Source: a virus (lineage: Duplodnaviria; Caudoviricetes). From it: a DNA stretch of 64,000 bases. Location of the stretch: the IMG/VR virus record IMGVR_UViG_3300037501_000255; one strand, written 5' to 3'. Position numbers and translations under genes: made by a program. The notes under the pieces were generated by a model. It did no database searches. It was not told the origin of the DNA and saw nothing but the letters and a program-made list of their open reading frames with translations. Below are positions 11,317-54,811 of this stretch, piece by piece; within the stretch, counting starts at the first letter, position 1, and every line of letters starts with the position of its first letter.

Positions 11317-12288
11317 CTAGCGGATAACTCCTCCGCCAATCAACTCATCGTCTCTGTAAACTGCGACAACCTGCCCTGTGCTTACGATGGTGCCTTCTGC
11401 AAGAGCAATATGCCCGCTCCCAATCTCTGAGACTGCGTACTTTTTACCATGATATGCCACCTGCGCTGTCAGCATTCCGGATGCTTGGGGCATGTTCCGC
11501 CAGAGCACACGAATTTCCCTCGTGACCGGAACCTCCTTGCCAACCAAGATGCGCTTGGTATCCACAGATACAACGGTATCTCCGCCAAAGCCCTTACGCT
11601 GACCAATGGCCGGGCGTCCAGTGTAACGACCAATCTGGATTAGATCGCTGCCGCTTGACCTGACAACTTCACGATCAAAGGACGGTAGGAGGTGGTTAAA
11701 ACACAAGTTCTGTGAATCTGGAGTTGACGCTGTCGATAGTCCAACCTCAGATGCAACTGATCGCACATCGCTCTTATGCATGTGGCCTAGTGGAGTCAGC
11801 CAGAATTTTAGCATCGCTCTGTCAACGAGACTCACCATATATGACTGGTCTTTTTTAGGATCTCGCCCTCGGAAGACGCGCCCACTATCGTTAATGAAGT
11901 AGTGCCCGCTGGCAAAATAATCACATTGGAGAACTTGCCTATAGTAGTTGAATAGCGGAGCGCGCACATCTGCATTGCACGTTGTGCAGGGGGAAGGTAC
12001 GCCGCCGGCGGACCATACCTGAATGCTTGGATCAATTACCTTCTTCGTAAAGAGTTGCCGAACATCTGGAGTGTGGAGTGTGATGCCCAGCTTATCGCAC
12101 ACACTACGCGCTCGACTGATTGCCGACTCAGCGCAGCATACATAGTCATCACAGTCAGTAGGCTCATTTACTTGCTTGAGAAGCACGCCCTCCACAAGGA
12201 AGCCTTGCTGCTGTAGTAGGTAGGCGGTTACACTGGAATCCACGCCGCCGCTGATACCGACCAAGACTTTGCTCATGCACGAATCCAT
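11317..12288 (-). CDS. mnmA: tRNA-specific 2-thiouridylase MnmA
   Basis: PP-loop SGGVDSS, PSPCTTCN, SGHY, DPKKDQSY, DSQNLCF, IGQRKG, GQVVAVY...IGGGVI; probable start MSKVLVG. Confidence 0.9.
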   Translation of the reverse strand: MDSCMSKVLVGISGGVDSSVTAYLLQQQGFLVEGVLLKQVNEPTDCDDYVCCAESAISRARSVCDKLGITLHTPDVRQLFTKKVIDPSIQVWSAGGVPSPCTTCNADVRAPLFNYYRQVLQCDYFASGHYFINDSGRVFRGRDPKKDQSYMVSLVDRAMLKFWLTPLGHMHKSDVRSVASEVGLSTASTPDSQNLCFNHLLPSFDREVVRSSGSDLIQIGRYTGRPAIGQRKGFGGDTVVSVDTKRILVGKEVPVTREIRVLWRNMPQASGMLTAQVAYHGKKYAVSEIGSGHIALAEGTIVSTGQVVAVYRDDELIGGGVIR

Positions 12289-12340
12289 TTCGGATAGAGT
12301 TGACTGGCTATGTGAGTATGAGTGGCGGCTGGTTCTGGAA

Positions 12341-12350
12341 TAATTAATTA
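12341..12350. promoter_or_regulatory. TAATTAATTA palindromic intergenic motif (copy 1 of 6 exact)
   Basis: Exact 10-mer overlapping the stop of ORF 12348..12533, about 55 bp upstream of mnmA. Confidence 0.5.
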
Positions 12351-12680
12351 CTTATCATTTTTACAGAACAGGCAATTGCCGAAATAGGCAGTTATGTGCC
12401 GAGAGCACATGATTCCTATTCCTAGGATGTTTACTGCCCTCCCACCATACAGTAGGGGCTCAGGTTGAAGAGTGTGGTCGACCACCGGGAGTCTAATATA
12501 TGGCTTATCAAGATTCTTTATTGGTTTCTTCATCTTCTAAAGATTCAAAGTCTATATCTGAAAGATGTAGGACTTCCTCACATTGTTCATGTGGCATGGC
12601 GCAGCATTCAGGACAATGGTATGCGCGGGGGGTGGGGTATATACCAACCTCGGCCAGTGCATGCCTGGCTATATGGTAGG

Positions 12681-13254
12681 TCAAAGCGCAATTCCTTTGA
12701 TCTCAGCAAAGATCCTGTTGAATGGGCGCAGTGTGGCGTCATGCACTAAAGTAGTGCACAACTGAAACAGGGGGATATAATGTTCTTTTGTTTCCTTGAG
12801 CTGCTTTGTGCGAAAACCCTCGTCCTCAGGCGGGGATCGCAAATTATCGAGCCTGTCCGCAGCCTTCACAATCATGAATCCAGGATATTGACTCTCAAAC
12901 TTCAGATTGTCAATATAGCTATCTTTATCTGTCTTTGTGAGCGACCTCACCCATTCCGCCCGAAAAGTTCTTCTGTAAGTGACGACAGGAGCTCTACTTC
13001 CTCGGAGTCTTCGATTGAATCGTGCAGAAGTGCTGTGATTATGAGATCGGGGCTGGTAAACCCGGCATCAATTAGAATCAGTGCCGTTCTGCGCAGATGT
13101 TCGAAATATCGGAGTGGTTTGCCATCTGGACCCAGTTCTTTGCGCACCTGACCCTTGTGAAATTTTTAGCAAGAAGATATGCCTTCTCTACCTTTTGAGC
13201 ATCAGGGTGAGACATGATACGGTACACTTTACACATGAATTCTGCGCGATTCAT
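12681..13254 (-). pseudogene. HD-domain hydrolase of the RelA/SpoT/Mesh1 type, frameshifted
   Basis: Pieces: DAQKVEKAYLLAKN/FHKGQVRKE...YFEHLRRTALIL...ALLHDSIED / VRSLTK...IVKAADRLDNLRS; at least 3 indels. Confidence 0.7.
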
Positions 13255-13294
13255 ACATCCTCCTATGGCAGCGTAATGAGCACCACTTTATTGG

Positions 13295-13504
13295 TCAAGC
13301 GGCTCCTGCGTGGAGTGAATTGGCAAAATCCGTCAGAAGCTCAATTACCGCATGGCGGTTTGCCGCTATATGCGTTTCGCCATTTGAAAGCAAAACCATG
13401 TAGTCCTGCCCTTGGTGTACTGCCGCAATGTCCTGCCCTCCGCATGTGACGACCCATACCGAGTTTGTGCGTTCACTAAATATCAAATCTTCTATAGAGA
13501 ACAT
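13295..13504 (-). CDS. Hypothetical protein
   Basis: 69 aa ORF with GGAG RBS. Confidence 0.55.
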   Translation of the reverse strand: MFSIEDLIFSERTNSVWVVTCGGQDIAAVHQGQDYMVLLSNGETHIAANRHAVIELLTDFANSLHAGAA

Positions 13505-13536
13505 GTTGACTCCTAGCTCCGCACAATCAGATCTGC

Positions 13537-13551
13537 GGGTATGCGCGGTAT
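13537..13551 (+). repeat. 15 bp direct repeat, left copy
   Basis: GGGTATGCGCGGTAT read directly. Confidence 0.9.
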
Positions 13552-13654
13552 TCGGGGTTGGCGTGGTTGGTCCGAAAGTGGCGGAAGAGAAATAAGAAGA
13601 AGGTGCAGAAGAAGCCAGAGGGCGACGCCGATGCAGCGTAGCTTCCGACTGGAA

Positions 13655-14181
13655 TCATGGCGCGGTTGGGACAGGTGCGTGGACCGAAGCGTGGCGGCGT
13701 TTGAGGTCGATTTCGGAAGTTTGCAGGTCGAGGCTACGAGCTTTGGCTGATAGAGGCCGATGAGATTGATGACCTGCTCATATCTTGGCTCGTACTCCGA
13801 TTCGGCCGAGTCCACAAGGTCCGTAGCAAGCTGCCTTGCCCAGATGTCGACCGGCAGCTTGTTCGTCTCCTTAGAGACCTGCACTGCCTTTTCCAAGTCG
13901 GCTTCGTGCTCAGTCGCTAGGGCTCGGCAAATACGAGCGATGTCATCGATGATGTCTGACTGATGTCTGTCCTTGAACATCTGGCGTCTGGCGTCCGCAA
14001 GCCTCTGGAGCAAAAGCTCTGGGTCAGAGTCCCGGTTCTCGTCGTCCGGCAGGTAGTCGCGTATGGAGCTAGTCATGTGCGGTGTAGGCCTCACAGGCAA
14101 CGTGCCGTTCAACCATAGGTTGCCCTTGCCACAAGGTGAACCTATCGTTTCAGAACCGTTGCAGCTTGGTCTTGAAGCCAT
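13655..14181 (-). CDS. Hypothetical protein inside the island, probably frameshifted near 13760
   Basis: Helical body of ORF 13513..14181 (DPELLLQRLADARRQMFKD...); an alternative frame gives a natural end SAKARSLDLQTSEIDLKRRHASVHAPVPTAP* at 13655. Confidence 0.4.
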
Positions 14182-14535
14182 CCCGTTCTGTATCCATTAG
14201 ATCTTTGAGCCACTTTTCAGTGGCAAGTTCATTTTCTGATGGATGGAAGGTTTTTGGCATCGATCAGCAGCGGCGCAGACAGAGGGTCGTGGTTGAGCAG
14301 GTGCAGCTTGGCTTCTTGAATCCTGTTCTTCACCCAACCGATGTCGGCCTTGAGAATGTCCTTGTTCGGCTGCACGGGCAGCGGTGCCTCGTCGTTGACC
14401 CTCCTCTTACCTGGGGGCTCCTGCGCGCGGATCTCGTCGGCATGGTACTTGGCGTTAACGACGATCTTCACCGCCTTATTTCTGGCTTCTTCCAGTATTT
14501 TGGCGCCCGCGCGTCGACAACGGTCACGTCTCTTC

Positions 14536-14829
14536 TCAAGGGAGGTCGCTAGCTGCTTCTTTTCCTTCTCTAGCTCTTCGCGTAGCTTCACGACCTCTGA
14601 CAGCGAGGCAAGATCGGGAGGCCGAGCATAGAAGGTTGCGATGCAGACGCCCATAGCAGCTAAACCCGCTCTTGGTGCGGTTGTCGCGCTGGACAAACCC
14701 GGCAGAAATCACCTTGCCGTGAACGGCCCTTGCTGCGTCGGCGTGCCTGACGGTTGGTGGGAAAATGATCATGGTTTCATTGCCGAAACCAGCCATCTCG
14801 ATCAGAACGTATTTCGGGTCATTACCCAC
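14536..14829 (-). CDS. Phage hypothetical protein inside the island
   Basis: KYVLIE...IIFPPTVRHAD...ISAGFV...CYG pattern; C-terminus uncertain. Confidence 0.5.
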   Translation of the reverse strand: MGNDPKYVLIEMAGFGNETMIIFPPTVRHADAARAVHGKVISAGFVQRDNRTKSGFSCYGRLHRNLLCSASRSCLAVRGREATRRAREGKEAASDLP

Positions 14830-15169
14830 GTTGGTTCCGGTCCTGTCGGCTGTTTATGATACTCCGGCACTCCTGACACCAGGTCGGCATGGCGGCCCAT
14901 CGAAGGGCGTCGGTCTTGGTCTTGTGCCCCACGCAGGTACCGTGCGTATCGCAAACCGAGAACCACGGAAGCTCCTCAGCCTCAGACCCGGCACCAGCCT
15001 GTTCGGCCGTGCAGACCGTGATTCTGAGGCTGGATGCCCGGCACGTGCGCGTCACGGGCATTTCCCTGAGAAGGGACGCCGCGTGCTTTACGGCGGGATG
15101 CTCGGCCAGCCCACGAGCCGAGGCGTCCTTAATGAACTTTTTTACTGCCTTGATGTCGAGCTTGTCCAT
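14822..15169 (-). CDS. Phage hypothetical protein with Cys/His cluster, inside the island
   Basis: PWFSVCDTHGTCVGH...PTWCQEC. Confidence 0.55.
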   Translation of the reverse strand: MDKLDIKAVKKFIKDASARGLAEHPAVKHAASLLREMPVTRTCRASSLRITVCTAEQAGAGSEAEELPWFSVCDTHGTCVGHKTKTDALRWAAMPTWCQECRSIINSRQDRNQRG

Positions 15170-15282
15170 ACCTTACCTATAGGCACCTCATCAGGGTCGT
15201 CAAGAGGAGCTTTACTTATTCCTGTTCTTTGGTACGCCTGCACTTTCTCAGCGACCCGCGCCGGCGGTTCCAGTGCTGACCA

Positions 15283-15297
15283 GGGTATGCGCGGTAT
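15283..15297 (+). repeat. 15 bp direct repeat, right copy
   Basis: GGGTATGCGCGGTAT read directly. Confidence 0.9.
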
Positions 15298-15318
15298 GGT
15301 GATGGGAACAACGCAGCG

Positions 15319-15336
15319 CTGATAATTAATTATCAG
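15319..15336. promoter_or_regulatory. Perfect 18 bp palindrome CTGATAATTAATTATCAG containing TAATTAATTA
   Basis: Read directly; includes the stop codon of the FmdB gene. Confidence 0.55.
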
Positions 15337-15536
15337 AAGTCTGCAGGGGGTCTGCTGCTGTATAAATCCTTATGCCACCCACCGCCTTTTAGTTGAAAGG
15401 TGGTTTTAGATATTATCTTGGCCATGGAATCCGCCGCCCCACACTTCTCGCAAATATGCGGTGGAGGGTCGGTAAGGCGCTGAAGTTGCTCAGAAATGTC
15501 GTGACACACCAGGCATTCATAATCGAATAGTGGCAT
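15333..15536 (-). CDS. FmdB-family zinc ribbon protein
   Basis: MPLFDYECLVC...CEKCG...KIISKTTFQLKGGGWHKDLY. Confidence 0.85.
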   Translation of the reverse strand: MPLFDYECLVCHDISEQLQRLTDPPPHICEKCGAADSMAKIISKTTFQLKGGGWHKDLYSSRPPADF

Positions 15537-15590
15537 AGTTACTCCTATCAATAAAACTTGACACTTAAGAAACTTATTCTCGGAGGAATT

Positions 15591-16034
15591 ATGAGTAATC
15601 TGATCAGACTATTAGCCGAAAGTGCCGCAGCCCTGGATAGGGCTGGGATGTTTAAAGAGGCTGATTTGGTTGACGACATGCTGCGCAGCCTCGCTGCTGA
15701 TGCGGCTGCTGCCCCAAAAACCGCCAGAGCTTTGCTGGCCGACATGACTCGTCTGGTTGATACATTAAAAGCGGCAGACGTGGGGGCGAGCGTTGCCATT
15801 AAAGCCGTCAAAGATTTACTGGCACAGTTAGATGCAGCCGTTGTCGCTTCTTTTCAGACAAAGAAGGGTGACTCGCGTGTCCGTATTATGGCTAAGGATG
15901 CTTTGAATCGATTCCTTGCTATTGCAAATAGCAATAATGATGCGGCTAATGAAATGTTTCGGCCGATAGTAAAACCTATGGTCGATGCGTTGCAGATGAT
16001 GCTTCGGCTACCAGATAACCTAATCTGGTCCTGA
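15591..16034 (+). CDS. Hypothetical helical protein, one of few plus-strand genes
   Basis: GGAGG RBS then ATG at 15591; followed by a hairpin terminator. Confidence 0.7.
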   Translation: MSNLIRLLAESAAALDRAGMFKEADLVDDMLRSLAADAAAAPKTARALLADMTRLVDTLKAADVGASVAIKAVKDLLAQLDAAVVASFQTKKGDSRVRIMAKDALNRFLAIANSNNDAANEMFRPIVKPMVDALQMMLRLPDNLIWS

Positions 16035-16038
16035 AGAG

Positions 16039-16065
16039 AGCCCGCCTTAGGCGGGCTTCTTATTT
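16039..16065. terminator. Probable bidirectional intrinsic terminator between convergent genes
   Basis: AGCCCGCC-TTA-GGCGGGCT followed by a T-rich tail. Confidence 0.7.
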
Positions 16066-16370
16066 GCCGAGCCTTTTCTTTAAGCTGCTAAATTCAGCTT
16101 CATCTCGCTCGCGTTCTCTTTTGGCACGCATCTCATTGGCCTGTCCCTGCAATGCGTGCAGAATCTGATTCTCATCAAAATTCTATGGGTCAGTAATTTC
16201 ATAGACTGGGCCGTGGCGAATACCATCCTCCGTAAGGGAGCGGGGTGCGGTCTCCGGATCGCCGTAATTACTAATGATTTCTGCGGTAAGTAGCTCGGCC
16301 AGCGTCGTGCCCTCTGGCACCGTAACAATTTCATAATCTAAACCACATCGGATAGTATAGTCTCAGCCAT
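16060..16370 (-). pseudogene. Hypothetical protein with an in-frame TAG at 16183-16185
   Basis: Frame reads YEIVTVPEGTTLAELL...HGPVYEITDP*NFDENQILHALQGQANEMRAKRERERDEAEF; ends approximate. Confidence 0.45.
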
Positions 16371-16637
16371 TGCTTTGTTCTCTAAAGACGATATATTTTT
16401 TCCATTTGTATACCTTAACTGTTGCAGTTAAATGTAAGCTCTGACTCATGCAACCAATATAAATGAGAAGCATCTTTTATTGAGACGTGAAGCCAAGTTC
16501 CGCCCAGGGGTGAGCCAAACCATGTATTCGCAACACTCTCCGTACACGGCATTTTTTGCATAATAACGCACGGATACCCATTCCATTTCCATGCAGGATG
16601 ATTCTCAGTTACATTTACCCAGCCAGATGTGTTTGTT

Positions 16638-22030: not shown

Positions 22031-23522
22031 TAGCTGGAATGCGGGCGTAGTCGTCCCAGATCGAATCTAATGTATATTTTGACATAAGAGCTGGCGCATA
22101 GCTGCAAGGCCCGGCCTCTTGTGTTACAGCATTAATATACATCGAGAAGGCCCCCTCGCTTGTGTGGAACGAGATTGGCGGAACTCCGACCTTCTTAAGT
22201 TCATTTTTGCACAAAGAAGCGAGAGTTGTGTCTATCGCTAGGTTCGGCATGTATTCCGGCTGAGGGCAGGGGTTCGCACTATCCCGCTGTTCTAACAAAC
22301 GCTCGTGGCTGCCGCCACTCGCTTTCCAATATGAACCATCGCGGTCAAACAGATCCTTCTGCCTCTTTGCCTCCCATGCCTCCGCTCCCTCGCGGCAAGC
22401 CTGCACTCGCGCCGTCCACGGCGCAATCCACTCGGTTTGATTGGGGGCATTATGTACCGGCAGACCGCTCCTGGCAGCAGCACCACGACCCGTATCCTTA
22501 TACCCTAGCAGCGTCAAGCGATGCCCTTCGGCTGCCTCCATCATTTGCTCAAACTCTGCCACTGATACCGTTCCGACAACTACCTGGAAGTGTACCTGGA
22601 ATGGCGGATATTTGGCATGGAAACGCTCTAAGATGCCTCGAATCTGCTCGGCAGTATCTACCGAGAATGCCACAGCAGATACCGGCACCTCGGGGATCTC
22701 AGCCCAATAGGTTACGTTGCGACTGGTCACATTAACGGTCACGCCCGCGCTATGGAACGCCTCTACAATACGGGCGAAGTCGGGATGCAGGGTGGGCTCG
22801 CCACCACCAAGAGCCACTTCTAGTACGCCCGAGTCACAGAAGCGTTGAGCAAGCGCTTCCAGATGTGCAAGCGGTGCATGTCGGCCTTGCGGGGTCGAAC
22901 CTTGGTAGCAGTATGAGCAACCGTATGGGCAATAATCGGTAATCTTGATATCGACCAGTTCGGGCCATGTACCTTTGGCAGGAGGCTCTTCTCCGGTATG
23001 CGTCATGCGAAGTTTGGTCCCAGACCGGCGATCGAAGAGCACAAAGTGGCCTTTGGGATCACGGACTAGGGTCCATGAGTCACGGTGTGCGAGTGCTACA
23101 GCTCCCGCATCTTGAAATACCGACAGGAGTGGGTGACCATCAGAATTGTCGTTCCCGCCCAGAATAATCACACGATTCATACTGATTAGCTGATGGAGAA
23201 ATGCCGCTACCTCGGGTGAGTTTGTGGGAGCGCCGGTTGTACGGTCGGTAATTGACAGACCCTCATCGCCCCAAACACTCTGGTGATCGATAGAGGGTTC
23301 GTCATTGCCATTGCCCCAAGATCCGGTAACATACCCCATCTGCGCCCGGTAGTACTCTTCTTTGTCGGAGAGCTCTGTGAGCGTAAAGTCATCCCACCCA
23401 TAGTCGCCCCAGTTGCTACCATGGGAAGAGGGTGGCGGCGGAGTGCCTGGTGGCAGAATAAGGATGCTGTGCGAGGATGATGAATTCGTGGCGAAACCGT
23501 GGCGGATATTGTGAACTCTCAT
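22014..23522 (-). CDS. Radical SAM protein fused to an N-terminal 'GFxTNSSS' domain
   Basis: ITDYCPYGCSYCYQGS (CxxxCxxC), VALGGGEPTLHPDF; N-terminus IRHGFATNSSSSHS. Confidence 0.88.
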   Translation of the reverse strand: MRVHNIRHGFATNSSSSHSILILPPGTPPPPSSHGSNWGDYGWDDFTLTELSDKEEYYRAQMGYVTGSWGNGNDEPSIDHQSVWGDEGLSITDRTTGAPTNSPEVAAFLHQLISMNRVIILGGNDNSDGHPLLSVFQDAGAVALAHRDSWTLVRDPKGHFVLFDRRSGTKLRMTHTGEEPPAKGTWPELVDIKITDYCPYGCSYCYQGSTPQGRHAPLAHLEALAQRFCDSGVLEVALGGGEPTLHPDFARIVEAFHSAGVTVNVTSRNVTYWAEIPEVPVSAVAFSVDTAEQIRGILERFHAKYPPFQVHFQVVVGTVSVAEFEQMMEAAEGHRLTLLGYKDTGRGAAARSGLPVHNAPNQTEWIAPWTARVQACREGAEAWEAKRQKDLFDRDGSYWKASGGSHERLLEQRDSANPCPQPEYMPNLAIDTTLASLCKNELKKVGVPPISFHTSEGAFSMYINAVTQEAGPCSYAPALMSKYTLDSIWDDYARIPAIDGGK

Positions 23523-25573: not shown

Positions 25574-26441
25574 CCCGTTTGCGCCTATAATTTGCAGCGG
25601 CGGTGCTTGGACAGTCGGTATAAAACTGGGACGAGAGCCCGCATCCCCACTCCCCGCAGGTACAGACGGGAATTTCTTGAGCGCACTCTGGACATGGGTG
25701 GGAGGGTTGTGTCATATGTAGATCTGTTCGTGCGTGTCGCTTCGGTAGTAGTGACGGTATGGGGAATAGTCATCGCTTTCCCATCCTGACCAGGACATCG
25801 CCACTCTAACATAAACACGCCAGCCGCCTTCGTGCTTCCAAGTATGATCCTTGTGTACGTACCACCACTTGCCAGGGTAGTGGCGGCGCAGGAGGGTTAT
25901 GACTCGCCGCCTATAATTGAATAGGGTTATTGGGAACCTTGGCATATCTGCCATACTAGATACTCGCGTTCCACTTCTTGGATTACTATCAAATAATTGC
26001 CACTATCCCACAGTTCTTGCGTGGTAAGTGTTACCGTGTCGGACAGCGGGGGCTCCCACCGGTCATGGCCACCTAACTACGCTGGATACATCTCTTCGAG
26101 ACGCCTGTCGATGAGGCGGCGTTGTAAATCCAGATTTTCTCTTATAGAACGCGCAGCATGCCTTGTCATCACAAAAAGCGGAAATAAACGATCGGCCCTA
26201 GCGGTGGAGCTGCCGCACATGTCCGACAACTCAGATGCGATTGCATCTAGCAAAGTAGAGTTGTATCATTTGCTGCGCAAAAGAATACAATCACCTAGGT
26301 AGGGTTGAGGCGAATGCGAATATGTCTGTAGTTGCCGAGCGGCACATCTGCTTTGCCACTGCAGCCTCGGCATCTGTAGTTGATTGCTGCATACAGTTCT
26401 CCCCCAACACACCGCGTATGTACCGTAGTGCGAGTTTTGTA

Positions 26442-26451
26442 TAATTAATTA
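26442..26451. promoter_or_regulatory. TAATTAATTA motif
   Basis: Immediately follows the TAG stop of ORF 26452..26886. Confidence 0.5.
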
Positions 26452-35338: not shown

Positions 35339-35392
35339 TCCTGGGTTCTCGGGCAGATTCGCTCCGAGTATGTAGCGGTGTACCTAGTGAGG

Positions 35393-35402
35393 TAATTAAT
35401 TA
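35393..35402. promoter_or_regulatory. TAATTAATTA motif
   Basis: Exact copy about 55 bp upstream of ORF 35030..35338. Confidence 0.5.
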
Positions 35403-39057: not shown

Positions 39058-39285
39058 CTAGACCCAAGAGGCCCTAGAGGCCCCAGAGGCCCCAGAGGCC
39101 CCAGAGGCCCAAGAGGCCCTAGAGGCCCCAGAGGCCCCAGAGGCCCCAGAGGCCCAAGAGGCCCCAGAGGCCCAAGAGGCCCCAGAGGCCCCAGAGGCCC
39201 CAGAGGCCCAAGAGGCCCCAGAGGCCCCAGAGGCCCCAGAGGCCCTAGAGGCCCCGGAATAAAGAAGAGCAACAGGATTAATCAT
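39058..39285 (-). CDS. Low-complexity peptide MINPVALLY-(S[G/W/R]A)n, 75 aa
   Basis: ORF track; starts 3 nt after the stop of the paralog upstream. Confidence 0.55.
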
Positions 39286-39288
39286 ATA

Positions 39289-39432
39289 TCACCCAGAGGC
39301 CCTAGAAGGCCCAGAGGCCCCAGAGGCCCCAGAGGCCCCAGAGGCCCCAGAGGCCCAAGAGGCCCAAGAGGCCCCAGAGGCCCAAGAGGCCCAAGAGGCC
39401 CCGGAATAAAGAAGAGCAACAGGATTAATCAT
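39289..39432 (-). CDS. Low-complexity peptide MINPVALLY-(S[G/W/R]A)n, 47 aa
   Basis: Manual translation [47 protein letters not shown]. Confidence 0.5.
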
Positions 39433-44753: not shown

Positions 44754-45077
44754 TCAGGTGCCGATCGCCTCGGCAGCCTGAATGCCCTCGGCCAGCGACG
44801 CCTGCAGCGCCTCGAGCCGCTCGATCAGATCAGGCAGCTCACGAGCCGGGAGACGGCTCACCGCCGACAGGTCGAGGACAGCCCCACCAGCCCCGCGCGC
44901 CTTCTTGCCCTTGTTCGAGGCAACGAACGCACGGTAGTTCGCAATCAGGGCCACGCGACCGGCAGGCACCTTAGCCTCACCGTTGGCCTCGTTGCGGAGC
45001 ACGACCGGGTGCGAGAACACAGTCTCGACAACCGAATCACCAGTCTGAATCACCTCTGCAGCAAACGCAATCGTCAT
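44754..45077 (-). CDS. Hypothetical protein, tandem paralog A
   Basis: 107 aa; own promoter and GGAG RBS. Confidence 0.75.
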   Translation of the reverse strand: MTIAFAAEVIQTGDSVVETVFSHPVVLRNEANGEAKVPAGRVALIANYRAFVASNKGKKARGAGGAVLDLSAVSRLPARELPDLIERLEALQASLAEGIQAAEAIGT

Positions 45078-45100: not shown

Positions 45101-45514
45101 TCATGCCCGACGCGGAAAGAATAGCGAATAATTCTGCTCTGTCAAGGGAAGGGGGCTCGACCCGGATGAAACCAGATCAGGCCCCCTCCCCCTCCCCTCA
45201 CAGGCCTCGGCCTGCTCGATACCCATCTCAAGGCTATCCTGAAGCTCGCGCAGCTTCGCAATCAGATCAGGCAGCTCACGAGCCGGGAGACGGCTCACCG
45301 CCGACAGGTCGAGGACAGCCTGACCGGCACCGCGAGCCTTCTTGCCCTTGCCGGACTGGTTGAAGGCGCGGTAGTTCGCAATCAGACCGATGACACCGGC
45401 GGGGATCGCCTTCGCCTCGGCGGTCGCCTCGTTGCGGAGTGCAACGGGACGAGCGAACACGCTCTCAACAACGGACTCGGACGCGGTAGCGGTCTCAGAC
45501 GTGAACATCACCAT
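45101..45514 (-). CDS. Hypothetical protein, tandem paralog B (3' end uncertain)
   Basis: Aligns end to end with paralog A; own promoter. Confidence 0.7.
   Translation of the reverse strand: MVMFTSETATASESVVESVFARPVALRNEATAEAKAIPAGVIGLIANYRAFNQSGKGKKARGAGQAVLDLSAVSRLPARELPDLIAKLRELQDSLEMGIEQAEACEGRGRGPDLVSSGSSPLPLTEQNYSLFFPRRA
45118..45145 (-). promoter_or_regulatory. Sigma70-like promoter TTGACA-N16-TATTCT
   Basis: Read directly. Confidence 0.7.
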
Positions 45515-54325: not shown

Positions 54326-54811
54326 TCATCCTCCAAAACAAGACCGACAAGGTCCTCGGTGGTACGTGGAAGGTCGATTGCACGGACGCGCTGTCGTTCA
54401 CCCTTATGAATCACAATGTCACCTAGGGCGATTTTACGACCAGCCGGCAATTCTCTAGTGTGAATCAGGTAAATCCGACCAATGCCCTTAAGATCGAAGG
54501 AGCCGTGTGTAATAATTTCGACAGGATCCTCAGTCGCCATTTTCGCCCCTTGCTGCAATGATATCTCGGCATTCGTGATACCGCCACCGATGTTCGGCAT
54601 ACAAGCGGTACGCGATTTGTTCGATAATCGTCTTTTCTCCAACCACAGCGCGGGCAAACAACTCCCTCTCCATCTCCTCAAACTCTGCCACTGAAACGCA
54701 GAATGGATTATAGAAGTAGAGGTGAATCTGTGGCTCATTCTTCATTTGATCTCCTCATTACGGCAGCATAGCCGCACTCATTACATACTACAGCGGGAGC
54801 CTTAACCATCG

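What the first reader, a model, noticed from the sequence alone, without database searches (positions are those of the whole stretch)
13537..15297. 1.75 kb island between 15 bp direct repeats, with no recombinase
Seen: GGGTATGCGCGGTAT at both ends; the interior appears more GC-rich and holds short phage-like ORFs. In the predicted excised circle an ORF starting at the ATGA overlap at 13658 crosses the repeat and reads ...NHANPEYRAYPGQHWNRRRGSLRKCRRTKEQE*, whereas as integrated it stops two codons after the repeat. An 11 nt partial copy (GGTATGCGCGG) lies at 12618. The right end sits about 20 bp from the 18 bp palindrome. Inference: an att-like integrated mini-element mobilised in trans, or microhomology-mediated capture of foreign phage DNA.
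Basis: partly seen in the sequence, partly recalled or inferred. Interest (0 to 1): 0.65.

Follow-up and report, generated by a model that had tools for sequence, protein, structure and literature searches.

The report
Foreign gene cassette in phage promoter
A giant freshwater phage has taken up a 1.7 kb block of three foreign genes between a recurring promoter-like signal and the gene behind it, duplicating 15 bases of that signal; this is a well-marked but fairly ordinary example of how phages gain genes without a dedicated integration enzyme.

Summary
GGGTATGCGCGGTAT is exact at 13537 and 15283. The interior has GC 0.57 against 0.48 in the flanks, and GC3 0.69-0.74 against 0.49-0.53. An 11-nt third copy lies at 12618.

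A 15-mer pair alone is weak evidence: about 1.7 pairs are expected in 64 kb. But both copies fall in the two short non-coding zones that the gene layout allows for junctions (expectation about 2e-5).

The new result is what the repeat is. On the coding strand it reads ATACCGCGCATACCC. This is the CATAC part of a recurrent backbone signal, TAATTAATTA-N20-24-CATAC-N22-42-ATG, seen at four gene boundaries (P about 1e-7). Earlier first-stage notes had seen the palindrome but not this coupling. Deleting the island in silico restores a canonical unit in front of the 69-aa gene.

The cargo is one intact phage-type zinc-binding protein and two orphan genes, one apparently frame-broken. No recombinase, terminal inverted repeats or tRNA target were found.

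Best reading: short-homology capture of foreign phage DNA through a circular or repeat-flanked donor, like T4-type PeSL cassettes.

No empty-site allele could be tested. The relatives were not retrievable, and only contigs of one run were available.

The parts
15319..15336 (.). 18-bp palindrome CTGATAATTAATTATCAG. It is the AT-rich half of a backbone gene-boundary signal and overlaps the stop codon of the Zn-ribbon gene. It belongs to the target, not to the island.
   Evidence: I13. TAATTAATTA is exact at 6 sites and the 12-mer occurs at 5 sites against 0.05 expected.
15283..15297 (+). Right copy of the 15-nt direct repeat. On the coding (minus) strand it reads ATACCGCGCATACCC. It sits 24 nt downstream of TAATTAATTA, which is the native position of the signal's CATACC element.
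15170..15282 (-). 113-nt non-coding leader of the island, upstream of gene A. Its GC is lower than in the island's coding part.
14822..15169 (-). Gene A, 115 aa, intact. It is a small C-x2-H...C-x2-C zinc-binding protein of a family with 172 cluster representatives, and its function is unknown.
   Evidence: invariant C73, H76, C98, C101; pLDDT 95.1; uncharacterised Caudovirales proteins, prob 1.00; no convincing PDB match, best Z 4.4.
14229..14829 (-). Gene B, an orphan. Codon periodicity runs in one frame from 14829 to about 14670 and in another from there to 14229 (coiled-coil part, called as 141 aa from 14654). It is either a frame-broken gene or two overlapping genes.
   Evidence: GC by codon position; no homologues; no families.
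13513..14076 (-). Gene C as called (187 aa), an orphan. Codon periodicity supports coding only down to about 13760. The open frame then runs through the left repeat and stops 24 nt into backbone DNA.
   Evidence: (Atlas holds it from residue 36; pLDDT 0.46).
13527..13658 (-). It crosses the left repeat and stops two codons after it. Coding status is uncertain.
13537..13551 (+). Left copy of the 15-nt direct repeat. It sits 32 nt upstream of the ATG of the 69-aa gene (SD AGGAG). No TAATTAATTA lies upstream of it, because that side is island DNA.
13295..13504 (-). 69-aa backbone gene that the interrupted signal originally preceded.
12618..12640 (+). Third, degenerate copy (site 0). On the coding strand it reads ATACC-CCACCCCCC-GCGCATACC, which is the 15-mer with a 9-nt insertion and one end mismatch. 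It lies 41 nt after the stop of the HD hydrolase pseudogene.
   Evidence: (D6).
12681..13254 (-). Neighbouring HD (Mesh1/SpoT-like) hydrolase gene, read in three frames. Both -1 frame changes are at short homopolymer runs. With the 69-aa gene it fills the interval between site 0 and the left repeat.
   Evidence: (HD_4, phrog_990 on the middle piece).
15333..15551 (-). Zn-ribbon (Zn_ribbon_8) backbone gene whose stop codon lies in the palindrome. It is the upstream neighbour of the insertion site.
12316..12350 (-). Reference copy of the compound signal: TAATTAATTA, 20 nt, CATACT, then 38 nt to the MnmA ATG at 12288. Two more copies lie at 26416-26451 and 35368-35402.

Best explanation
A 1.73-kb three-gene cassette of foreign, phage-type DNA was inserted into the accessory region of a freshwater jumbo phage. 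The genes are one intact small zinc-binding protein and two orphans. The insertion lies inside an intergenic unit that recurs in this genome: upstream stop codon, TAATTAATTA, 20-24 nt, CATAC, 22-42 nt, start codon. It falls just after the CATACC element, and 15 bp of that element (ATACCGCGCATACCC on the coding strand) now stand at both ends.

The most likely route is a single crossover between this 15-bp stretch and the same stretch on a small circular donor. A double exchange with a donor that carried the stretch on both sides of the cassette would give the same result. Either would be carried out by the phage's general replication and recombination machinery, not by a dedicated integrase. 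This is the logic shown for PeSL mini-circles in T4-type phages.

Since insertion, the upstream signal would drive the cassette and, by read-through, the 69-aa gene. The cassette looks as if it is decaying.

Shown: the repeat, the compositional contrast, the recurrent signal, restoration of the canonical unit on deletion, and the absence of recombinase genes and terminal inverted repeats. Inferred: the direction of the event (insertion), the circular or doubly flanked donor, the enzymes, and that the signal is a promoter.
For: Repeat and composition. Both copies fall in the only non-coding zones where junctions can lie, with expectation about 2e-5. The right copy is part of a compound backbone signal: 4 of 6 TAATTAATTA sites carry CATAC 20-24 nt downstream on the coding strand and none on the other strand, binomial P about 1.3e-7. 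Each is followed by a start codon. Deleting 13552-15297 gives TAATTAATTA-N24-CATACCGCGCATACCC-N32-ATG with an AGGAG Shine-Dalgarno, matching the other three units. It neither restores nor breaks any ORF. The other units share only CATAC with the 15-mer, so selection on the signal does not explain 15/15 identity. The left copy lacks the AT-rich half, as expected for a crossover product. No recombinase family was found in the island or in any tested ORF of the window. There are no terminal inverted repeats, no tRNA or RNA family at the ends. The cargo is phage-type and mostly orphan. The junctions are read-supported in an independent k=31 assembly of the run, a 95-kb contig with 0 differences. 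Precedent: PeSL-flanked ORFan cassettes with crossovers mapped between the -10 element and the ATG, no integrase, and mini-circles (PMC2839356).
Against: No relative with an empty site and no circle junction could be examined, so the insertion is inferred from one genome. Fifteen bp is below the roughly 30 bp quoted as the minimum for Red-beta recombination (PMC3945230). It is also far shorter than the PeSL motifs. The donor side shows no copy of the AT-rich half of the signal, so this is not exchange between two full signals. The island's bulk GC (0.57) equals that of the other half of the same window, so 'foreign' rests on GC3 and the local k-mer contrast. A nearby third copy and the internal GGTAT-GCGC-GGTAT structure hint at a specifically recognised site, which fits a site-specific mechanism better. 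The promoter function of the signal is untested, and the sigma-70 scan did not flag it.
Confidence: 0.5

Rival explanations
1. Site-specific mini-element. The 15-mer is the core of attL/attR, and the cassette is integrated and excised by a recombinase supplied in trans. The recombinase could be encoded elsewhere in the 368-kb phage genome, by the host (Xer-type hijacking as in IMEX or dif modules), or by a co-infecting element.
For: Exact direct repeats bound the compositional island. A third degenerate copy lies in the same orientation 0.9 kb away, expectation about 0.003. The core has internal structure, two GGTAT half-sites 9 nt apart, as binding sites often do. The element carries no recombinase.
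Against: No integrase, serine recombinase or transposase family in any tested ORF of the 64 kb. Earlier notes on the other windows list homing endonucleases but no integrase (unchecked). The 15-mer has no other copy in 64 kb. The target is not a tRNA or tmRNA. There is no 28-bp two-arm dif-like architecture. The cargo looks decayed, unlike an active element. Island genes and backbone genes are each on exactly 3 contigs, so no island-free record exists.
Confidence: 0.15
2. Chance repeat in an ordinary variable gene block. Genes A-C are simply part of a mosaic accessory region, acquired by whatever route. The 15-mer pair and the 11-mer are coincidences made more likely by reuse of a CATACC-type regulatory element.
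For: About 1.7 pairs of 15 nt or more are expected per 64 kb and about 0.1 within 3 kb. GC is heterogeneous throughout the window.
Against: The joint placement of both copies in the two narrow non-coding junction zones has expectation about 2e-5. The best GC change point on the left falls within 4 nt of the repeat. Deletion restores a canonical signal-to-gene unit. The other signal copies share only 5 nt with the 15-mer.
Confidence: 0.13
3. Functional operator repeats. ATACC-GCGC-ATACC is the binding site of a phage regulator that acts in front of gene A, the 69-aa gene and the genes after site 0. Selection keeps the copies identical, and the island arrived independently of them.
For: There are three same-strand copies, each 20-115 nt upstream of an ORF start. 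The half-sites are tandem at a 9-nt spacing. The element is embedded in a promoter-like signal.
Against: Operator copies rarely keep their spacer and flanking bases identical (15/15) while everything around them is unrelated. The copies coincide with the composition boundary. The left copy lacks the AT-rich half that accompanies the other signal copies.
Confidence: 0.1
4. Target-site duplication made by a staggered cut 15 nt apart. The agent could be a transposase or casposase-like integrase (casposons make 14-15-bp duplications, from my own knowledge), or a homing-type nuclease followed by fill-in.
For: An exact duplication of backbone sequence stands at both ends of an insertion. The genome is said to be rich in homing endonucleases (unchecked).
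Against: No terminal inverted repeats at the island ends. No transposase, Cas1 or nuclease gene in the island. 1.7 kb of unrelated ORFs is not the build of a non-autonomous transposon.
Confidence: 0.07

Closest known systems
PeSL (promoter-early stem-loop) cassettes and mini-circles of T4-type phages (Arbiol et al. 2010, PMC2839356; Comeau et al. 2014, PMC4122927)
   Same: An intergenic regulatory motif with an AT-rich upstream part lies at gene boundaries of the accessory region. ORFan cargo. No integrase. The crossover lies between the -10-like element and the ATG. A circular intermediate is the natural donor form.
   Different: The motif is different (TAATTAATTA-N20-24-CATAC) and has no stem-loop terminator or sigma-70 consensus. 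Only 15 bp are shared and the downstream copy lacks the rest of the motif. Circles are not shown.
Mosaic joints made by relaxed or short-homology recombination of phage recombinases (De Paepe et al. 2014, PMC3945230), and morons in general
   Same: Foreign phage DNA is acquired at a short stretch of identity, without site-specific enzymes. The cargo is a small self-contained gene block between two backbone genes.
   Different: The identity here (15 bp) is shorter than the roughly 30 bp quoted there as the minimum for Red-beta. A flanking duplication implies a single crossover with a circle, not a replacement by two crossovers.
Recombinase-less integrative modules that use a recombinase in trans (IMEX elements such as CTX-phi, and pdif modules using XerC/D; from my own knowledge)
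   Same: An island between short direct repeats that encodes no recombinase of its own.
   Different: Those sites are 28-bp two-arm dif-like sites in bacterial replicons. Here there is a 15-bp tandem half-site core in a lytic-type jumbo phage genome, and no Xer-type architecture is seen.
Integron gene cassettes
   Same: Promoter-proximal insertion of promoter-less ORF cassettes. A possible array of two cassettes separated by copies of one short element, with the older copy degenerate.
   Different: No IntI gene, no attC-type imperfect palindromes, and the repeat is a 15-bp direct sequence.

Membership tests
PeSL-type mobile regulatory cassette | A repeated intergenic motif at gene boundaries in the accessory (hyperplastic) region | tested here: met
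   TAATTAATTA-N20-24-CATAC occurs at 4 gene boundaries on the coding strand only, P about 1.3e-7. The island sits among orphan and decaying accessory genes.
PeSL-type mobile regulatory cassette | The motif consists of a sigma-70-like early promoter plus a stem-loop terminator | tested here: not met
   The consensus scan flags no sigma-70 promoter or terminator at 15283-15336. CATACT/CATACC is at best a weak -10. No G+C stem-loop is present.
PeSL-type mobile regulatory cassette | The cassette is flanked by two copies of the whole motif | tested here: not met
   Only 15 nt are shared. The left copy has no TAATTAATTA upstream.
PeSL-type mobile regulatory cassette | Circular excision products (mini-circles) are detectable | not testable with these tools
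   Only assembled contigs of one run were available. They show no alternative joint, and contigs drop rare variants.
Integrase-borne genomic island or prophage-like element | A tyrosine or serine recombinase gene within or next to the element | tested here: not met
   No Pfam or PHROG hit in the island ORFs, nor in any other tested ORF of the window.
Integrase-borne genomic island or prophage-like element | Direct repeats (att core) at both ends | tested here: met
   15/15 identity at 13537 and 15283.
Integrase-borne genomic island or prophage-like element | An empty-site allele or an excised circle exists | not testable with these tools
   No retrievable close relative.
IS, MITE or casposon-type transposon | Terminal inverted repeats inside the target-site duplication | tested here: not met
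   No inverted repeat pairs the two inner ends.
IS, MITE or casposon-type transposon | A transposase or casposase gene in the element, or known in the genome | tested here: not met
   None found in the island or in the window. The other 300 kb of the genome could not be searched.
Xer-dependent IMEX or dif module | 28-bp site with inverted XerC and XerD arms around a 6-bp centre | tested here: not met
   Reading directly, the repeat is 15 nt with two tandem (not inverted) GGTAT half-sites. The sequence beyond it differs between the copies.
Integron cassette array | An IntI integrase with attI, and attC sites at cassette ends | tested here: inconclusive
   No integrase family in the tested ORFs, and no Rfam match at all in 12000-16600. 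attC sites were not modelled specifically.

The most novel reading that the evidence does not exclude
The CATACC-GCG-CATACC core of this promoter-like signal is a reusable capture site. New cassettes would enter at the promoter-proximal copy, which leaves an array in which the three same-strand copies (15283 exact, 13537 exact, 12618 degenerate) separate successive cassettes: first the foreign A-C block, then the older 69-aa gene plus HD hydrolase block. This would be an integron-like, promoter-proximal gene-capture system in a giant phage. It would run either on general recombination alone or on an unrecognised protein that reads the tandem GGTAT half-sites.
Probability: 0.12. Interest if true: 0.7.

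Novelty: new variant of a known kind. Interest (0 to 1): 0.36.

Why it matters
Giant phages carry hundreds of orphan genes, and how they gain them is poorly documented. Here both joints of one acquisition are preserved at single-base resolution. They map to a defined, recurrent gene-boundary signal, which suggests that regulatory motifs guide gene capture outside the T4-type phages where this was first described. The case also gives a concrete, testable site (the 15-mer in front of the 69-aa gene) to look for cassette turnover in relatives and in read data. By itself, without an empty site or a second example, it remains a single well-marked instance of known phage mosaicism.

Tried and rejected
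1. Relatives for an empty-site test. There was no DNA match of the island or of 9-20 kb in GenBank phages. At protein level there were only distant, non-syntenic hits. IMG/VR gave nothing for gene C, the flanking aminotransferase-like gene, the empty-site junction pattern, or the 60% and 50% relatives P0154 and P0157. JGI metagenome scans returned only 32-44% relatives with no synteny. The compound signal and the core are absent from those loci.

2. No whole genome is held for this window, so the other 300 kb could not be scanned for the 15-mer or an integrase.

3. Reads. Only one run holds the DNA, it is probably the source, and it is available as contigs only. These showed no alternative joint, which is not evidence of absence.

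4. Assembly chimera: rejected. An independent k=31 assembly spans both joints in a 95-kb contig with no differences. A 15-mer cannot bridge such a graph.

5. Donor search. Gene A's closest relatives (38-46%) sit on 1-2.4 kb contigs. The genome-contig scan found none. The one IMG/VR locus (L001) shares only gene A's domain. The island has no DNA similarity or paralogues elsewhere in the window.

6. Function of the cargo. There were no Pfam or PHROG hits. Gene A's confident model has no convincing PDB match. Gene C has no usable Atlas match.

7. RNA elements at the ends: none in Rfam, and no tRNA.

8. My first guess that the HD gene's frameshift removed the His of HKGQ was wrong. The motif is intact and the shift is in the A5 run before it.

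9. I make no claim about that region.
Full report
**1. What is there**

The window is part of a giant phage from a freshwater metagenome. It carries ClpB-like, UvdE, RlaP, MnmA-like, DNA ligase, RNA ligase and radical-SAM genes, a tmRNA and three tRNAs, nearly all on the minus strand. Proteins of the island and of its flanks are recorded on a contig of 367,953 nt.

The 15-mer GGGTATGCGCGGTAT is exact at 13537-13551 and 15283-15297.

Between the two copies, on the minus strand, lie:
- a 113-nt leader;
- gene A (15169-14822, 115 aa);
- gene B (14829-14229), whose codon periodicity changes frame near 14670;
- gene C (called from 14076), whose periodicity fades near 13760 but whose open frame runs through the left repeat to 13513;
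- a doubtful 43-aa ORF (13658-13527).

The neighbours are a Zn-ribbon gene to the right (15551-15333) and a 69-aa gene to the left (13504-13295). Next comes an HD hydrolase gene that is read in three frames.

**2. Is it more than chance?**

A 15-mer pair by itself is not. Simulations give about 1.7 such pairs per 64 kb and about 0.1 within 3 kb.

The island is compositionally distinct from its surroundings:
- GC is 0.572 against 0.483, with the left change point at 13533, on the repeat.
- GC3 is 0.69-0.74, against 0.49-0.53 for neighbouring genes and at most 0.68 for any backbone gene tested.
- The GC-normalised tetranucleotide signature is in the lowest 1-2% of local windows.

The window as a whole is bimodal in GC, so bulk GC alone does not prove foreignness.

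The gene layout leaves only about 240 nt on the left and 163 nt on the right in which junctions could lie. A 15-mer pair with one copy in each zone has an expectation of about 2e-5. I take the association of the repeat with the island ends as real.

**3. What the repeat is**

This is the main new result. That 10-mer is exact at six places in the window, and its 12-nt form occurs five times against 0.05 expected. Earlier first-stage notes had also seen this palindrome at gene boundaries.

On the coding strand, four of the six copies are followed after 20-24 nt by CATAC, and none on the other strand (binomial P about 1.3e-7). A start codon follows 22-42 nt later: MnmA at 12288, and ORF starts near 26392 and 35333. 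In each case the upstream gene's stop codon lies in or against the palindrome.

The right repeat, read on the coding strand, is ATACCGCGCATACCC. This is the CATACC element of one such unit, at the normal distance (24 nt) from its palindrome.

Deleting 13552-15297 in silico gives TAATTAATTA-N24-CATACCGCGCATACCC-N32-ATG, with an AGGAG ribosome-binding site in front of the 69-aa gene. That matches the layout of the other three units. No ORF is restored or destroyed.

The other units share only CATAC with the 15-mer, so functional constraint does not explain 15/15 identity. The left copy lacks the AT-rich half, as expected if it is the distal product of a crossover inside the 15-mer.

The island is therefore an insertion between a backbone promoter-like signal and its gene, with a 15-bp duplication of backbone sequence. 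That the signal is a promoter is my inference. The sigma-70 consensus scan does not flag it.

**4. Third copy**

GGTATGCGCGG recurs at 12618, with no other copy in 64 kb. The expectation for a same-strand copy within 1.5 kb is about 0.003. On the coding strand it reads ATACC-CCACCCCCC-GCGCATACC, which is the 15-mer with a 9-nt insertion.

It lies just after the HD pseudogene. The 69-aa gene plus the HD gene are therefore bracketed by site 0 and the left repeat. This could be the trace of an older event at the same core, or a functional site. I cannot decide between these.

**5. Cargo**

Gene A belongs to a family with 172 cluster representatives at E of 1e-3 or better. It keeps the four invariant residues C73, H76, C98 and C101. 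It folds with mean pLDDT 95.1 and resembles only uncharacterised Caudovirales proteins. There is no convincing solved-structure match.

Genes B and C are orphans. Nothing in the island matches Pfam or PHROGs.

No integrase, recombinase or transposase family appears in any tested ORF of the window. There are no terminal inverted repeats, and no tRNA or Rfam family at the ends.

**6. Is it real DNA, and is it polymorphic?**

One public run, a freshwater metagenome that is probably the source, holds the stretch. Its independent k=31 assembly spans the whole region in a 95-kb contig with no differences and no alternative joint. That excludes an assembler-specific chimera. It cannot exclude rare empty-site or circular forms.

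In the 15-billion-protein collection, the backbone neighbours and the island proteins are each on exactly three contigs. No record carries the backbone without the island. These records are probably not independent samples.

**7. Relatives**

None was usable. GenBank phages, IMG/VR and JGI metagenomes gave no close relative. The distant loci that were retrieved share only the query gene. No whole genome is held for the window.

**8. Mechanism**

A flanking duplication of pre-existing target sequence, with no inverted termini and no recombinase, is what a single crossover between a circle and the genome at a short identity produces. A double exchange with a donor flanked by that identity gives the same product.

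The closest documented system is the PeSL cassettes of T4-type phages. There, ORFans in hyperplastic regions are flanked by promoter motifs with an AT-rich upstream part. Crossovers were mapped between the -10 element and the ATG, mini-circles were detected, and no integrase is involved (PMC2839356; see also PMC4122927).

The differences are listed under membership. The motif is different and has no stem-loop. Only 15 bp are shared. The identity is shorter than the roughly 30 bp quoted as the minimum for Red-beta (PMC3945230).

I put 0.5 on this reading. The alternatives are a trans-acting site-specific system (0.15), coincidence (0.13), conserved operator sites (0.10) and a staggered-cut target duplication (0.07).

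**9. Verdict**

It is a new variant of a known kind of phage gene acquisition. Its value lies mainly in the single-base resolution of both joints and in their link to a recurrent gene-boundary signal of a giant phage. Interest is moderate. It would rise sharply if relatives showed different cassettes at the same core.

Noticed in passing
window 12316-12350, 15283-15332, 26416-26451, 35368-35402: Compound gene-boundary signal on the coding strand: upstream stop codon, TAATTAATTA, 20-24 nt, CATAC, then 22-42 nt to a start codon. Four of six TAATTAATTA sites have it (P about 1e-7). It is a candidate phage-specific promoter or boundary element. The two other palindrome copies (35675, 39910) lack the CATAC.
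   Followed up: partly
window 12681-13254 (minus strand): The HD (Mesh1/SpoT-like) hydrolase gene is read in three frames. The motifs FHKGQVRK, LLHDSIED and KAADRLDNL are intact but split by two -1 frame changes at short homopolymer runs (A5 at 13163-13167, G3 near 12960). It is a pseudogene, or less likely a consensus error.
   Followed up: partly
window 39063-39400: Long tandem array of the 9-nt unit AGAGGCCCC (variants CCCAAGAGG, CCCTAGAGG), with a 58-nt exact higher-order repeat at 39247 and 39394.
   Followed up: no
window 44824-44948 and 45261-45385: 60-nt exact direct repeat spaced 437 nt, with further 15-17-nt matches in register. It looks like a diverged tandem duplication of about 0.45-0.55 kb.
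   Followed up: no
window 1-64000, switch near 35-36 kb: Bimodal base composition: GC is 0.45-0.50 up to about 35 kb (apart from a 0.53-0.55 stretch at 22-24 kb) and 0.52-0.63 beyond, with a peak of 0.63 at 36.0-37.5 kb.
   Followed up: no
window 14822-15169 (minus strand); alignment A1: Gene A defines a widespread unnamed family of small proteins with a roughly 65-aa C-x2-H...C-x2-C domain (consensus PW-TVCE-HG...WCE-C). It has 172 cluster representatives and a confidently predicted fold with no convincing PDB match. The closest matches are uncharacterised Caudovirales proteins.
   Followed up: partly
window 22548-22565 and 54677-54694: 18-nt exact direct repeat CTCAAACTCTGCCACTGA, 32 kb apart. 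It is of the size expected by chance about once per window.
   Followed up: no
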